This document shows, in pieces, positions 11,389-15,347 of a stretch of DNA of 61,764 nt. Position numbers and translations under genes: made by a program. Every line of letters begins with the position of its first letter. The first letter of the stretch is position 1. The stretch is from a virus. Lineage: Duplodnaviria > Caudoviricetes. The notes below the pieces were generated by a model. That model was not told the origin of the DNA and did no database searches. It saw nothing but the letters and a program-made list of their open reading frames with translations. The stretch lies in IMG/VR virus record IMGVR_UViG_3300027162_000003, positions 1 through 61,764 of that record. One strand, 5' to 3'.

Positions 11389-12618
11389 TTACAGACCAGT
11401 CGAGCTAGTCGAACAAGGGAGAGGATTTACATCAAGCTGGCAACGCTTGTAGACGATGGCGCACACATTCTGCGGGCGAATCGGTTGAATCGCACGGCTG
11501 ATTTGATAGATGTGCTGACCGAAGTCGCCATACAGGTTGCAATCGTTGTCGCGGAAGTAGGTCCACTCAAGTTCACCCATAGCAAGCTGCGGGGCGAATT
11601 TGAAGGTTCCCTCGCCAACATACTGCTCAGGAATGAGACGCTTGAAGGCTTCACCAGCGATAACGAACATAACTTCGTAAGGAGCATCAACCCAGATTGG
11701 GTTTCGGCGTTGAGCAAATCCTGTGTCAACAGCTTGACTAATGATAGGATTCACGAGAACGAGGTTGCCGCTGCCATCGAAGCCAGTCGCACGAAGCGGC
11801 TGTTGGTCGATACCAAAGGCGAAACCACGATAACCCATGAACTGATAACCACTGATGCTCTCTTCGCCGAGCTTGAAGCTACCAGCAGTAAGATACAAGA
11901 GGTCTTCTTTGACATCTGCATCGTTGCGGAAGTTTTCAATCTGGTCAGAGGAAGCAAGAACTTGGAAGAACTCGCCATCTTTGCTGGCGAAAGGCTCTGC
12001 AAGCATCTCTTCGCGGAGGAAGGTTCCGATACGATAGAGGGTCTTGAAGTTCATCGGAGCATCTGGGAGATGTGAAGCCCAAGGTGCGCCCTGAACTTGC
12101 ATATCACCAGTCAGATTCTGAGAGAATGTTTTGGTGCTATTGACAACATACTTGATACCGCTCTGAATTAAATACTGATAACGGATGTCGGCGTTGATGA
12201 GCTGAAGGATCGTCTTTTCCAACGCAATTTGAGCTTGGAGGTAGGAACCCTTGAAGGCCGTGCGAGCTTGCTTGACACAAACGCGAGGACCAGCACCACG
12301 GAGGGTCTGGAGTTGGAATGTGTATTCAGTAGAACCAACTTGATCTGGAGTAGCACCAGCACCGCAAAGCGAGGTGTCATTCAAAAACAAAGGAGCGGCA
12401 AGCGCACCAGCGCCATTGACGCCAGCATTAGCTGGAACGGCCATTTCCTCAACAACGCTACGGACGACATCCGAGACATTTGGGAGGGTTCCGCCATCAA
12501 TCGAGTTGATGTATGGGGATTTGCGAGCAAGCACGCGGCCAATCTGACCGATGATGCGAAGGGTATCTTTACTGGCGAAGTCTTGGACTGCCGCCAAAGG
12601 AATGCAGGTATTAGACAT
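11389..12618 (-). CDS. Major capsid protein
   Basis: 409 aa, downstream of portal/scaffold in the late arm, high-expression codon bias, long structured leader, terminator after the stop. Confidence 0.75.
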   Translation of the reverse strand: MSNTCIPLAAVQDFASKDTLRIIGQIGRVLARKSPYINSIDGGTLPNVSDVVRSVVEEMAVPANAGVNGAGALAAPLFLNDTSLCGAGATPDQVGSTEYTFQLQTLRGAGPRVCVKQARTAFKGSYLQAQIALEKTILQLINADIRYQYLIQSGIKYVVNSTKTFSQNLTGDMQVQGAPWASHLPDAPMNFKTLYRIGTFLREEMLAEPFASKDGEFFQVLASSDQIENFRNDADVKEDLLYLTAGSFKLGEESISGYQFMGYRGFAFGIDQQPLRATGFDGSGNLVLVNPIISQAVDTGFAQRRNPIWVDAPYEVMFVIAGEAFKRLIPEQYVGEGTFKFAPQLAMGELEWTYFRDNDCNLYGDFGQHIYQISRAIQPIRPQNVCAIVYKRCQLDVNPLPCSTSSTGL

Positions 12619-12624
12619 ATTATT

Positions 12625-12900
12625 AGTTTTCTAGTTTTGTTTTGTTTGTTGTTTTACTCGACCTTTATTCCCATTGCATTTTTGCTAGAGGAGAATCGAG
12701 TGTGTTTGGGTTTTGTTCTGCTTGAACTACCCTCCGTTTAGAAAACTTTGGGCGACATTCAAGTGCGAGACGATCCATTGCTGGATAGCTTGCAAGTTGT
12801 TTGTTCGCCCCGGCACGCTGGGCTTATTGTGCGGCCTGTGATGTGGTTTCTTAAACTACCACGGAGTTGCCATTAACGCATAGCTCGTCGCCGATGTGTG
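12625..12900 (-). ncRNA. Structured 5' leader RNA of the capsid gene
   Basis: GGCGAC/GTCGCC closing stem (12892-12751) enclosing several hairpins, including ATCCA-GCAA-TGGAT; no credible ORF. Confidence 0.55.
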
Positions 12901-12985
12901 AACTGCTATAATATATTTAATATTTCGTCAAATCATTTTTTCTGAAAATATTTTTGACATTTTAAAAAACTCAATTATTGTGCTT
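12900..12985. promoter_or_regulatory. Divergent sigma70-like promoters
   Basis: TTGACA (12954-12959)-N16-TATTGT on +; TTGACG (12931-12926) followed by an AT-rich -10 region on -. Confidence 0.5.
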
Positions 12986-12995
12986 GCATCTTTCT

Positions 12996-13475
12996 TGAAT
13001 CGAAACAGGATTCATGGACACATTTCCCCAATAGAAATGCCCGTCTTGATGCTGTTTCCATCAAGGCGGGTTTTTCATTTCGCATGAAGCTAAAAAGCAG
13101 TTCCCGAAAATGAGCCTAAAGATGAGCGTAGCACGGCAGGGTTCTATCCCCTGACTACGGAACAAACCTGAAAAGGACTCCCGTGTGAAGGAGAGGAGTT
13201 GGGAGGGTTAAAAGACTACCAACTTAATACGCTTCTTCAGAAATGAAGGAGACTGCGGATCAAGCTGGCTCTCACCGAAAGGTGTAAACAAAGTAAGGCT
13301 AGGATAAGGACGACCTCTGGCCGAGTGATCTAAAAATGCACACGATTGGCTCCATGCGAGGAAGTGTATGTTTTAGCAGTTTCTTGACCTAGGAACTGCT
13401 ATGCTCCGATTTCACCATCTAGGAAGCATTATGTATTTGCTGTCTGCCAGACCCGCCGGAGGCATATCGAATGCT
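12996..13475 (+). ncRNA. Candidate large structured non-coding RNA
   Basis: About 480 nt with no ORF >=60 aa; many stems, two GAAA tetraloops (CTTCTTCA-GAAA-TGAAGGAG, CACC-GAAA-GGTG), long-range AGCAGTTCC/GGAACTGCT pairing. Confidence 0.6.
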
Positions 13476-13513
13476 AAACTTATCTTAAATGATAAGATAA
13501 GCGTGTGTAGAGT

Positions 13514-14083
13514 TCAGAGTTTGCGTAGAACAAATTCAATGAAGGCTTCTACGCGATTCTCGTATGGATATGTCTGATCGACGCGAGTTCCAATTTTGTA
13601 ATTATAGTTTGTGTCGATTAGCTCGCAGTAGACTATTTCGCAATTAAAGTTTGCCAACCACTCTGGCAAGCAAACATGGGTTGGTGCTGGAGAACCTTTT
13701 TGCCACAAAGACCAAGTTGACTTGTGGTCTGGATTGAATCGGCTAGGCCAAATCATGCCTTCGTAGAGTTCCCAAGATGGGATCGAGATAACTGCGTATC
13801 CTCCCTTGCGTAGAACTTTCAGCCAAGACTCCAATGCAGCTTTAGGGTCACGCATATGCTCCAAGCATTGAGAGGCATGAATGAAGTCGAACGATTCGGC
13901 TTCAAAGTATCGGTCTAGGTGATTTGCGTCCCCATCTTCCATGTCGAATCTACGAACATCTGGAACATTGATTAGATCGTTTCCTGCTCCAATGTCTATT
14001 CCTTCACCTTTGAATATCTCAGAAAATAGTTCTCGTTTTTCTGAGTTAAATCGACGCTCCATTGCCTTGCTTGATTCTTTCAT
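13514..14083 (-). CDS. Class I SAM-dependent methyltransferase
   Basis: IDIGAG motif I; FDFIHASQCLEH; VLRKGG. Confidence 0.85.
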   Translation of the reverse strand: MKESSKAMERRFNSEKRELFSEIFKGEGIDIGAGNDLINVPDVRRFDMEDGDANHLDRYFEAESFDFIHASQCLEHMRDPKAALESWLKVLRKGGYAVISIPSWELYEGMIWPSRFNPDHKSTWSLWQKGSPAPTHVCLPEWLANFNCEIVYCELIDTNYNYKIGTRVDQTYPYENRVEAFIEFVLRKL

Positions 14084-14781
14084 TTGATTAGTTTTAGTGG
14101 GTTTATTCTGTCTATAAAGTAATTTGCGCCTTCGTATCTAACAATGCTGTCTGGAGTATCAAGAGAAGTCTCTTGGATTAGCGGATGATGGAGTCCAGCG
14201 GCTATCCAGAATGGAGATGATTGATTTCCAATGAACATATCACTTCCAGCGATAGCTTGAGCTATATCCAGACAATTATTCGTCAAAAATCTATCAACCT
14301 TGCCGAATTTATTTACAAAATCACCATATTCATCGTGAACTCCGATAAAAACAGCACGATCTCTGATTTTATCAATAAGTTCCCGCCATGGGAACAAATC
14401 GTTTCGGTATCTAGGCGATCTACAACACACAATCTTACCTTGCAAGGTCAAGTTTGGCTTAACTTCTAGCCATTTTTCTATGCAAGGCTCAACTCCAAGC
14501 TCTTTAGCCTGCATTTCAATGATTGTTCCAGTCCCCCAGTATTTTCTGAAACCACAAGCATTAAAATCTATGTTTTTAGGGGCTTTCTCAAAAGACACCC
14601 CTGTAATGTAATCTTGTTGCTCCAATAAAGGCTTTATTGACTGGTATCTGAACCCTTCCATCTTCAATTGCGGAGTGGAATTGTGGTCTGTAATTACTAA
14701 ATGACCACCACCTAGCTTCCGCATAAGTGGAAGGAACGCAATTATGTCCCCAATATGACCAGAATGGAGAAATGTCTTCAC
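14080..14781 (-). CDS. GT-B glycosyltransferase, GT9/heptosyltransferase-like
   Basis: HSGHIGDII and DMFIGNQSSPFWIAAGL motifs; GTG start overlaps the upstream TGA (GTGA). Confidence 0.75.
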   Translation of the reverse strand: MKTFLHSGHIGDIIAFLPLMRKLGGGHLVITDHNSTPQLKMEGFRYQSIKPLLEQQDYITGVSFEKAPKNIDFNACGFRKYWGTGTIIEMQAKELGVEPCIEKWLEVKPNLTLQGKIVCCRSPRYRNDLFPWRELIDKIRDRAVFIGVHDEYGDFVNKFGKVDRFLTNNCLDIAQAIAGSDMFIGNQSSPFWIAAGLHHPLIQETSLDTPDSIVRYEGANYFIDRINPLKLIK

Positions 14782-15347
14782 GCCAACAACCGCATCACTT
14801 CTGAACGCTTCTTTTTGGGAGTGAATTGGCAATGTTTAACCAATTTGTTAGACAAATCTTTATCGACGGAATTTACCATACTCTTTTCCGTCAAATTGAA
14901 TATGTTTTGATTTATGAATTTAATAATTGCGGCAGAACACATTTCTCGTGTTGCGTAAAACAAGTATGCTGGCTCGCCACATAAATACAAAGATTGATTT
15001 TTCTCAATTTCATTAGCTTTATCTGGAGTGAAATCAAGATTAAACACATCATAGTCACTCATCCATCCACCACCAGCGGCGTGTAGTCCGCACCACCTAG
15101 AAAAGCGAGCTATAAGCCAATTAAATTCATCACTGCGCTCACGAGGTAATGTTGCCTTGGAATTAACCATTTTAGCAATGATCTTATTGTAGAGATGAGA
15201 GCCTTGAATGTGAGAGTTATTTAACAATTCTGCTTTCCAGCCAAGTTTTTCCCATGACTTTTTCCACAAATTAATGCAAGCGAATTCCTCGTTCTGGTCT
15301 GCAAGCTGAATGCTAGTGTAAAATGCGTAAATGTTTTTCATAATCAA
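14778..15347 (-). CDS. Putative DxD glycosyltransferase-like protein
   Basis: WKKSWEKLGW...RWCGL..GGGWMSDYDV resembles GT32-like sugar transferases. Confidence 0.55.
   Translation of the reverse strand: MIMKNIYAFYTSIQLADQNEEFACINLWKKSWEKLGWKAELLNNSHIQGSHLYNKIIAKMVNSKATLPRERSDEFNWLIARFSRWCGLHAAGGGWMSDYDVFNLDFTPDKANEIEKNQSLYLCGEPAYLFYATREMCSAAIIKFINQNIFNLTEKSMVNSVDKDLSNKLVKHCQFTPKKKRSEVMRLLA

What the first reader, a model, noticed from the sequence alone, without database searches (positions are those of the whole stretch)
12996..13475. Orphan ~480-nt highly structured RNA transcribed against the late operon
Seen: an ORF-free interval in a gene-dense genome, downstream of a TTGACA promoter on +. 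It contains stems CGTAG/CTACG, GTTGG/CCAAC, CTTCTTCA-GAAA-TGAAGGAG, CACC-GAAA-GGTG, CTAAAA.TGCACAC/GTGTATG.TTTTAG and AGCATT/AATGCT. AGCAGTTCC (13096-13104) can pair with GGAACTGCT (13392-13400) to close a ~300-nt domain, in competition with the local hairpin 13374-13401, which suggests two conformations. GNRA loops and G-U pairs support the + strand. I could not match it to tRNA, tmRNA or group I/II intron cores, so it may be a new large ncRNA or ribozyme class, or a structured ssDNA origin.
Basis: partly seen in the sequence, partly recalled or inferred. Interest (0 to 1): 0.75.

Follow-up and report, generated by a model that had tools for sequence, protein, structure and literature searches.

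The report
New large structured phage RNA
Beside the likely capsid gene of an uncultivated freshwater phage lies a gene of about 450 bases for a tightly folded non-coding RNA that matches no described RNA family, and dozens of related phages keep its folds through compensating mutations.

Summary
Window 12619-13513 has no credible ORF. Plus-strand 12987-~13436 is a conserved, highly structured RNA gene behind a conserved sigma-70-type promoter (12954-12981). I collected 41 homologues (39 distinct) from viral and metagenome contigs. A 17-helix model is 96.3% paired (38-45% when partners are slid). 36 of its 93 pairs change on both sides (8-15 slid). No shuffle of 500 reached the observed covariation. 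Substitutions show no codon periodicity. No Rfam 15 family matches, and ARAGORN finds no tRNA or tmRNA.

The RNA has two parts. A ~135-nt 5' leader holds two hairpins joined by a 7-bp kissing loop; the second hairpin looks like an intrinsic terminator. A ~310-nt core follows. In relatives the same leader carries a second, unrelated structured core ("type B") or homing-endonuclease-like ORFs. Five near-complete relatives lack both RNAs, so the element is an accessory cassette. It occurs in two genomic settings: converging on late genes (this window), or directly upstream of dCMP deaminase and replication genes.

Function is unknown. My best reading is an autonomously transcribed, trans-acting folded RNA of a new class. 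The main rival is a cis-acting leader or attenuator. No transcript was seen.

The parts
12954..12981 (+). Sigma-70-type promoter, TTGACA-16 nt-TATTGT. It predicts a start at about 12987-12989.
   Evidence: 10 of 12 matches; the only promoter-like site in 12500-13700. The same arrangement is in L128. The TTGAC box is kept in 9 of 9 relatives. Consensus match only; no start was mapped.
12987..13436 (+). The whole conserved type A RNA, about 450 nt.
   Evidence: nhmmer and blastn homologues cover this span. Alignments A1 and A2. 17-helix covariation test.
12987..13124 (+). 5' leader domain, closed by P1 (12987-92 with 13119-24). It is shared with type B RNAs.
   Evidence: P1 is 98.7% paired, with 2 of its 6 pairs changed on both sides. 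The type B HMM matches window 12987-13110 at E = 2.3e-26. One search shows which parts are shared.
12996..13014 (+). Hairpin H1. Its loop, 13002-13008, is one side of the kissing loop.
   Evidence: helices 2 and 3..
13039..13076 (+). Hairpin H2 (13 pairs) plus a U tract. It looks like an intrinsic terminator. Its loop, 13052-13058, pairs with the H1 loop.
   Evidence: terminator-like site; helix 4 is 96.6% paired, and all 7 pairs of helix 3 change on both sides; 38 of 38 type A and 17 of 17 type B sequences have 6 or more complementary bases loop to loop, with 26 and 22 distinct loops in type A. The U tract is intact in 33 of 39 sequences.
13077..13118 (+). Conserved joining region of the leader. 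It contains 13082-86 and 13096-13104, which can pair with the 3' segment 13392-13404.
   Evidence: 96.5% and 98.4% paired. One change on both sides at 13083:13403.
13119..13415 (+). Type A core, about 300 nt with at least 12 helices. They include a T-loop-like hairpin (13137-13153), GNRA-capped hairpins (13167-76, 13232-51, 13273-84) and invariant unpaired stretches.
   Evidence: helices 5-17. Core identity to relatives is 85-95%, against 75-84% (p409 CDS) and 81-87% (pmt CDS) in 11 of 11 comparisons. The 'T-loop' and 'GNRA' labels are my reading of the loop sequences.
13375..13404 (+). 3' segment with three mutually exclusive conserved partners: the local hairpin, P2 with 13126-33, or the leader.
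13416..13436 (+). 3' tail with a Shine-Dalgarno-like AGGAAG (13421-26) and an ATG (13431). It looks like a vestige of the arrangement in which dCMP deaminase follows the RNA.
   Evidence: context-2 phages. The ORF is not conserved in context 1.

Best explanation
Plus-strand 12987-~13436 is a gene for a folded non-coding RNA of a previously undescribed family ('type A'). Host RNA polymerase would start at the conserved sigma-70-type promoter. The first ~135 nt fold into a leader domain. Its 5' end is tucked into helix P1, and two hairpins are locked by a 7-bp loop-loop (kissing) interaction. The second hairpin plus its U tract resembles an intrinsic terminator. Transcripts that pass it continue into a ~310-nt multi-helix core, and the 3' end of that core can pair back to the leader. 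I infer that the product acts as an RNA in trans, either as a compact tertiary fold that binds a phage or host partner or as a catalyst. I also infer that it is an accessory, exchangeable cassette rather than an essential genome element, and that the leader sets how much full-length RNA is made. Shown here: conservation, covarying structure, strand, non-coding nature, modularity, dispensability, and absence from Rfam. Inferred only: transcription, the 5' and 3' ends, termination at H2, action in trans, and any activity.
For: Structure is under selection. On 39 distinct sequences, 93 pairs are 96.3% paired against 38-45% in six slid controls. 36 pairs change on both sides against 8-15. The covariation score is 0.253 against 0.03-0.07, and 0 of 500 shuffles reach it. 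The core is more conserved than the flanking CDSs in 11 of 11 comparisons. It is not coding (stops in all frames). It matches no Rfam 15 family: 0 matches at gathering score in the window and in 10 relatives' loci, apart from one unrelated tRNA, and only scattered chance-level matches at E up to 10. The promoter is conserved at a fixed distance. The unit is independent of its neighbours: the same RNA sits in two different settings, and in this window no plus-strand gene follows it. It behaves as a cassette. The leader is shared with a second structured core, type B, which has 74 predicted pairs of which 31 change on both sides. Two contig ends share 97%-identical flanks but carry A in one and B in the other. 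Homing-endonuclease-like ORFs occupy the same slot. It is dispensable: 0 of 5 near-complete relatives with the short gap hold type A, and type B gave only one 28-nt match.
Against: No transcript is shown. In context 2 the RNA lies directly in front of dCMP deaminase with no terminator after it, and its 3' tail supplies the ribosome-binding site in several phages; that fits a cis-acting leader. H2 looks like a terminator placed before the core, so full-length RNA may be rare. No partner, target or activity is known, and no antisense target of 13 nt or more exists in the phage's own genome. The sequences are related to each other, so shuffle controls overstate significance; the slid controls are the fairer test. 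The structure was partly derived from these same sequences.
Confidence: 0.55

Rival explanations
1. It is a cis-acting leader or attenuator. The RNA is the long 5' untranslated region of an early or middle operon (dCMP deaminase, helicase loader, DnaB). The H2 terminator and the alternative pairings of the 3' segment switch read-through or translation in response to a factor. The copy in this window would be a displaced version of that leader.
For: In context 2 the RNA is followed in the same direction by dCMP deaminase in most loci where the downstream flank is visible. In several of them the start codon lies 40-50 nt after the last conserved helix, and an AAGGA or AGGAAG motif in the RNA tail is placed like a ribosome-binding site. 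There is a terminator-like hairpin near the 5' end and none at the 3' end. Three mutually exclusive, conserved pairings of 13392-13404 look like a switch. The window keeps a vestigial AGGAAG-ATG.
Against: In context 1 no plus-strand gene follows: the window, 9 of 20 viral loci and 8 of 28 metagenome loci. Yet structure and sequence are kept there at 85-95% identity. The distance to the deaminase varies from about 0 to more than 1000 nt. Two unrelated cores (A and B) precede the same gene. At about 450 nt with 15 or more helices it is far larger than the riboswitches and attenuators I recall. The same H1-H2 pair precedes endonuclease ORFs.
Confidence: 0.25
2. It is a self-assembling or strain-specific interacting RNA. 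The H1 and H2 loops pair between molecules rather than within one, building dimers or rings. In that case the loop code gives each phage strain its own specificity.
For: Loop-loop complementarity is kept in 38 of 38 type A and 17 of 17 type B sequences. The loops themselves are the most variable paired element (26 and 22 distinct loops in type A), and loops from different sequences reach 7 bp in only 1.6% of combinations. The H2 stem beside them is almost invariant. The published abstract reports that the large phage-associated RNAs GOLLD and ROOL form homo-oligomers (PMC12286853, abstract seen in the listing).
Against: A 24-45-nt linker allows the two loops to pair within one molecule. Freely drifting compensatory change is also expected for a purely structural intramolecular contact. 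Nothing here tests stoichiometry.
Confidence: 0.1
3. It is a mobile ribozyme or intron-like element, which would explain why it swaps with homing-endonuclease genes.
For: It behaves as a cassette with sharp swap boundaries. HNH-like and T5orf172 ORFs sit in the same slot. A remnant of the type B 3' end lies behind the T5orf172 ORF (L215).
Against: There is no interrupted host gene or exons; the flanks are an intergenic leader and the 3' flank of pmt. The Rfam group I and group II intron models and all self-cleaving ribozyme models gave no match even at E up to 10. The endonuclease ORFs replace the RNA rather than sit inside it.
Confidence: 0.05
4. It is a DNA-level element (a structured single-strand origin or packaging site), or a decayed protein gene.
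For: It is ORF-free and rich in inverted repeats, and it lies near the packaging and structural genes.
Against: G-U pairs hold on one strand only. It has a promoter at a fixed distance. It is absent from 5 of 5 near-complete relatives, which an origin or pac site would not be. There is no codon periodicity, and many gap runs are not multiples of three.
Confidence: 0.03

Closest known systems
ROOL and GOLLD (large 'ornate' RNAs of phages and prophages)
   Same: They are several hundred nucleotides long, multi-helix and non-coding, are carried by phages, have unknown function and make loop-loop contacts. Per the abstract of PMC12286853 they form homo-oligomers.
   Different: Their Rfam models gave no match, even at E up to 10. 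This RNA is smaller (about 450 nt). It has a shared leader with exchangeable cores. I saw no tRNA gene next to it. Oligomerisation is untested.
phi29-type packaging RNA (pRNA)
   Same: It is a phage-encoded structured RNA with its own promoter near structural genes. As I recall, its two loops are complementary and co-vary between related phages.
   Different: The Rfam pRNA model gave no match. This phage has an ordinary large terminase. The RNA is dispensable in relatives. Its size and architecture are unrelated.
Promoter-proximal leader RNAs of phage operons (lambda nut, HK022 put, attenuators) and leader-derived immunity RNAs (P4 CI, P1/P7 c4); all recalled, not tested
   Same: Hairpins lie directly behind an early promoter and ahead of an operon. 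There is a terminator-like hairpin, and loop complementarity is strain-specific.
   Different: As I recall, those elements are roughly 60-100 nt. Here a 310-nt conserved core follows, and in this window no operon follows. No protein factor or target site was identified.
HEARO / omega RNAs (HNH-endonuclease-associated RNAs)
   Same: A large structured RNA is found at loci that can also hold an HNH-like ORF.
   Different: Here the RNA and the ORF are alternatives, not partners. The ORF is 230 aa with only a weak HNH match, E = 0.0034 and below Pfam's cut-off. The Rfam HEARO model gave no match.

Membership tests
Any described RNA family (Rfam 15, 4227 models, including group I/II introns, RNase P, tmRNA, T-box, riboswitches, GOLLD, ROOL, HEARO, OLE, pRNA, self-cleaving ribozymes) | A covariance-model score at or above the family's gathering score. 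| tested here: not met
   There were 0 matches in the whole window. In 10 relatives' loci the only match was one unrelated tRNA. At E up to 10 there were only scattered chance-level matches, none recurring across 6 homologous loci.
tRNA / tmRNA | Cloverleaf or tRNA-like domain with a tag reading frame, as recognised by ARAGORN. | tested here: not met
   0 genes in the window.
Conserved structured RNA gene (generic) | Base pairs are maintained by compensatory changes beyond controls, and there is no coding signal. | tested here: met
   (96.3% paired; 36 of 93 pairs changed on both sides; slid controls 8-15). (no periodicity).
Intrinsic (Rho-independent) terminator, for H2 | A G+C-rich hairpin followed directly by a U tract. 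| tested here: met
   (13 pairs, 7 of them G-C, then TTTTT). The tract is intact in 33 of 39 homologues and interrupted in 6. Actual termination cannot be tested with these tools.
Cis-regulatory 5' leader / riboswitch | It lies consistently upstream of, and in the same direction as, the gene it regulates. | tested here: inconclusive
   Met in context 2. Not met in context 1, which includes this window.
Group I / group II intron | It interrupts a host gene, with exons on both sides. | tested here: not met
   The flanks are intergenic. No split ORF or RNA gene was seen.
Homo-oligomeric ornate RNAs (ROOL/GOLLD-like behaviour) | The RNA assembles into defined multimers. | not testable with these tools
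   The only hint is the covarying loop-loop code.

The most novel reading that the evidence does not exclude
This may be a new class of large modular phage RNAs. A common leader domain carries a strain-specific kissing-loop code and presents one of at least two unrelated, exchangeable ~300-350-nt cores (A or B). These cores could be ribozymes or self-assembling RNA machines used in phage-host or phage-phage conflict. On this reading the three competing pairings of the 3' segment are a built-in conformational switch.
Probability: 0.2. Interest if true: 0.9.

Novelty: new variant of a known kind. Interest (0 to 1): 0.7.

Why it matters
As far as I recall, bacterial and phage RNAs longer than about 400 nt with many conserved helices are few, and those with known function are ribozymes or cores of ribonucleoproteins. 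A new one is therefore a candidate for new RNA biochemistry.

This one has features that make it experimentally approachable. Its likely start is defined by a promoter and a 5'-terminal helix. There are 41 natural variants. A sister RNA shares the same leader. Natural "knock-outs" exist, namely relatives without it and relatives in which an endonuclease gene took its place.

The exchange of unrelated structured cores on one leader, and the private loop-loop code of each strain, are unusual. They hint at an arms-race function.

Tried and rejected
- **Known families.** Rfam at gathering score and at E up to 10 and ARAGORN gave nothing.
- **GenBank phages.** No DNA match to 12600-13600, and no tblastn match for p409 or the large terminase. 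There is therefore no cultured relative and no host.
- **Bacterial genomes.** An invariant 17-mer hit 19 stretches of genome contigs, but 0 of 19 matched the RNA profile. These are chance matches. The one extra viral hit of that 17-mer (L151) also failed the profile.
- **Metatranscriptomes.** I laid the contigs of 4 RNA runs on 12600-13600. They cover only 12600-12905, plus a relative that carries a different 838-nt cargo. None covers the RNA. This shows neither presence nor absence of a transcript.
- **Antisense targets in the phage's own genome.** Two 12-mers and no longer match were found; by my own estimate that is about chance level.
- **Column-based tests that failed.** The test of the 13330-13375 hairpin was defeated by misalignment, and a proposed GAGCC:GGCTC pairing was hit by a coordinate slip of mine, so neither is informative. 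The hairpin was rescued only by single-sequence folds.
- **First test of the long-range helix.** It used a coordinate one base off and was repeated correctly.
- **Constrained folding of the leader-closure conformer.** This is invalid because that pairing crosses P1 as a pseudoknot, so I do not use its energy.
- **All-against-all covariation screen.** It was too noisy to use.
- **Generic terminator pattern.** It returned 119 stretches, mostly unrelated. Only 8 of 93 new loci hold the leader, and no new cargo type appeared.
- **Earlier notes of this scan.** Nothing was found.
- **Literature.** Searches found no description of this RNA. PMC10690425 (passages read) lists more than 10,000 unnamed candidate structured RNAs in viruses. 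Its supplementary tables, which I could not open, might include part of this element or of the capsid-gene leader. In bioRxiv 10.64898/2026.09.15.751765 (passages read) the terms 'phage' and 'capsid' do not occur.

Full report
**What the window is.** The window is a complete or near-complete IMG/VR virus record of 61,764 bases with a completeness estimate of 98% and 43.7% G+C. Genes run on the minus strand from about 1.2 to 29.5 kb, on the plus strand from 29.8 to 40.2 kb, and on the minus strand again to the end. The first block holds a large terminase (PHROG phrog_2, E = 1.4e-11), a glycosyltransferase, a dCMP deaminase and a MazG-like protein. The plus-strand block holds replication genes: DnaB, a DnaD-like loader, an exonuclease and a resolvase. 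The 409-aa ORF 11389-12618 (p409) has no Pfam or PHROG match. Language-model features place it with clusters annotated as phage major capsid proteins, at score 0.97-0.98; this is a lead, not proof. No GenBank phage record resembles p409 or the terminase, so this is an uncultivated lineage. DNA runs that hold the stretch are mostly labelled riverine metagenomes, with aquaculture and estuary as well.

**The observation.** Between p409 and the 189-aa methyltransferase-domain ORF 13514-14083 (pmt) lie 895 bases with stops in all six frames. The promoter-like site TTGACA-16-TATTGT at 12954-12981 is the only such site in 12500-13700. The strongest terminator-like hairpin of that stretch follows it at 13039-13071. 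The single sequence folds better than shuffles on the plus strand (z = -2.94) than on the minus strand (z = -1.66).

**Homologues.**
- Searching with the two flanking proteins gave 110 loci from related viral contigs.
- blastn showed that window 12701-13432 is conserved at 74-90% in eight distinct contigs.
- Invariant motifs from their alignment retrieved more viral contigs.
- The same approach retrieved 29 metagenome stretches. A profile search confirmed 28 of the 29; 5 of those are the same sequences as viral contigs.
- I aligned 41 full-length copies, 39 of them distinct (A2). Left out were three truncated copies (L158, L169, L180), L114 (a 3' fragment) and the duplicates.
- The core 13119-13415 is 85-95% identical to eleven relatives. 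In the same relatives the flanking coding sequences are 75-87% identical, and the rest of the spacer is often unalignable.

**Structure.** RNAalifold on 21 sequences gave 92 pairs, 29 of them with changes on both sides. I then wrote a 17-helix, 93-pair model that includes one pseudoknot and counted it on A2.

| Measure | Model | Six slid controls |
|---|---|---|
| Cells paired | 96.3% | 37.8-45.0% |
| Pairs with changes on both sides | 36 | 8-15 |
| Cells with such changes | 275 | 25-64 |
| Covariation score | 0.253 | 0.033-0.067 |

- Four of the five measures were reached by 0 of 500 shuffles. The fifth, further pair types (87 against a shuffled mean of 86.7), was not exceeded.
- Helices with several compensated pairs are P1, the kissing loop, H2, 13137-41:13149-53, 13232-39:13244-51, 13257-62:13326-31, 13273-76:13281-84 and 13297-300:13319-22.
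- Some helices are invariant and so uninformative, for example 13126-33:13397-404 and 13178-81:13190-93.
- G-U pairs specific to the plus strand occur in H2 (33 of 39 at one position) and elsewhere.
- Substitutions are not three-periodic (814/896/857, p = 0.14). The same test on the p409 CDS gives 922/196/95. Gap runs of one or two bases are common.

**Anatomy.**
- The first bases after the predicted start (12987-92) pair with 13119-24, enclosing a leader domain.
- Inside it are H1 (12996-13014), a weak A/U-rich hairpin (about 13021-13039) and H2 (13039-13071) with a U tract.
- The 7-nt H1 loop is complementary to the H2 loop in every sequence, although the loops differ widely. Of 38 type A sequences, 34 have exactly 7 complementary bases, 2 have 8 and 2 have 6. 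There are 26 distinct H1 loops and 22 distinct H2 loops. Loops taken from different sequences reach 7 bases in 1.6% of combinations.
- The U tract is intact in 33 of 39 sequences and broken in the six most divergent.
- The core contains a 5-bp hairpin with a 7-nt loop that I read as T-loop-like, three hairpins capped by GNRA-type tetraloops, and long invariant unpaired runs.
- The 3' segment 13392-13404 has three conserved, mutually exclusive partners: the local hairpin (95.6% paired), the invariant strand 13126-33 (99.4%), and the leader segments 13096-13104 (96.5%) and 13082-86 (98.4%). In the last, the single G-to-A change at 13403 occurs only where the leader has U.

**Modularity.**
- Profile searches showed that many relatives share only the first ~140 nt. 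In these a different ORF-free sequence follows. This "type B" is itself a structured RNA: on 17 sequences it has 74 predicted pairs, 31 of them with changes on both sides. It has no Rfam match either.
- A scan for the H2 sequence found 17 further leader instances. All 17 hit the B-core profile (E from 5e-118 to 1.7e-4) and none hit the A-core profile.
- Two loci reported from one 68,965-base contig have flanks 97-98% identical over 132 and 165 bases, but hold core A in one (311 nt) and core B in the other (354 nt). I read this as the two overlapping ends of a contig assembled from a mixed population, that is, as alleles. The swap boundaries fall at about RNA position 143 and at the 3' end.
- In other relatives only H1-H2, again with complementary loops, precedes an ORF. 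One is a 230-aa ORF with a weak HNH match (E = 0.0034, below cut-off). The other is a 147-aa T5orf172/MUG113 ORF. Behind the latter a ~60-nt remnant of the B core survives.
- Relatives with a 250-nt pmt-p409 gap lack the module. In five such records, 91-100% complete, BLAST finds no type A. For type B it finds only one 28-nt match.
- The window holds one copy, of type A.

**Two genomic contexts.**
- Context 1 is this window, 9 of the 20 other viral loci and 8 of 28 metagenome loci. The RNA is transcribed divergently from p409 and converges on pmt, and no plus-strand gene follows.
- Context 2 is 11 of 20 viral loci and 20 of 28 metagenome loci. The RNA diverges from a homologue of the 250-aa ORF 14080-14832 and points at dCMP deaminase and the replication genes.
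- In several context-2 phages the deaminase start codon lies 40-50 nt after the last helix, and the RNA's purine-rich tail is placed like a ribosome-binding site.
- The window keeps AGGAAG (13421-26) and an ATG (13431), but the ORF behind it is not conserved.
- Neither context has a terminator-like site after the RNA.

**Interpretation.**
- Shown: a conserved, plus-strand, non-coding, highly structured element with its own promoter-like site. It is modular, exchangeable, dispensable, and has no match in Rfam 15.
- Inferred: that it is made and acts as an RNA.
- I favour an autonomous trans-acting RNA (confidence about 0.55). My reasons are that it keeps sequence and structure where nothing lies downstream, that it is far larger and more ornate than the cis-regulators I know, and that two unrelated cores can replace each other.
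- The cis-leader reading (0.25) is the serious rival, because of context 2 and the terminator-like H2. The two are not exclusive: the leader may gate read-through into both the core and the operon.
- The intermolecular-assembly reading (0.1) rests only on the hypervariable loop code.
- The intron-like and DNA-level readings are disfavoured.

**Limits.**
- Expression is unproven. The four metatranscriptome runs I could lay are contigs and do not cover the RNA.
- The host is unknown.
- The structure was partly derived from the sequences it was tested on, and those sequences are related.
- The covariance-model tool's 400-column limit kept me from building a model, so distant members may have been missed.
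- All members were found through exact conserved words.
- Supplementary tables of PMC10690425 could not be opened.

Noticed in passing
window 12619-12900, minus strand (most conserved 12701-12870): The leader of the capsid-like gene p409 is itself conserved, and in far more relatives than the type A RNA, including those with the 250-nt gap. The 37-sequence alignment shows hairpins with compensatory changes, and a conserved TTGAC box lies at 12928-12933 (minus strand). Short metatranscriptome contigs from three runs of three studies lie on it: 12706-12872, 12688-12889 and 12600-12724. It is a candidate structured 5' UTR of the capsid gene.
   Followed up: partly
L009:3157-3663 (-) and 16 other loci (alignment A3): 'Type B' is a second ORF-free structured RNA of about 470-530 nt. 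It shares the first ~140 nt (leader) with type A but has an unrelated core. It has 74 predicted pairs, 31 of them with changes on both sides, and no Rfam match. It occurs in both genomic contexts.
   Followed up: partly
L088:4621-5313 (-), L082:4663-5106 (-), L215: Homing-endonuclease-like ORFs occupy the RNA's slot behind the same H1-H2 leader hairpins. One is 230 aa with a weak HNH match; the other is 147 aa with T5orf172/MUG113 domains. Behind the T5orf172 ORF about 60 nt of the type B 3' end remain, as if the ORF had invaded the RNA gene.
   Followed up: partly
L121:1-608 and L188:8517-9165: Two stretches reported from one 68,965-base viral contig share flanks at 97-98% identity, but hold core A in one and core B in the other. 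They are probably the overlapping ends of a contig assembled from a mixed population.
   Followed up: partly
window 13479-13496: A small A/T-rich hairpin lies just after the stop of pmt (read on the minus strand). It is conserved in context-1 relatives carrying either RNA type. It may be the end of the minus-strand operon.
   Followed up: no
window 13401-13577 (+), ATG 13431: A small ORF starts behind an AGGAAG motif in the RNA's tail and runs antisense into pmt. It is not conserved in relatives. It is probably a vestige of the deaminase start seen in context 2.
   Followed up: partly
L128:12538-12611: A related 68-kb phage carries a tRNA gene (Rfam, 71 bits) about 8 kb from its copy of the RNA. 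The window itself has none.
   Followed up: no
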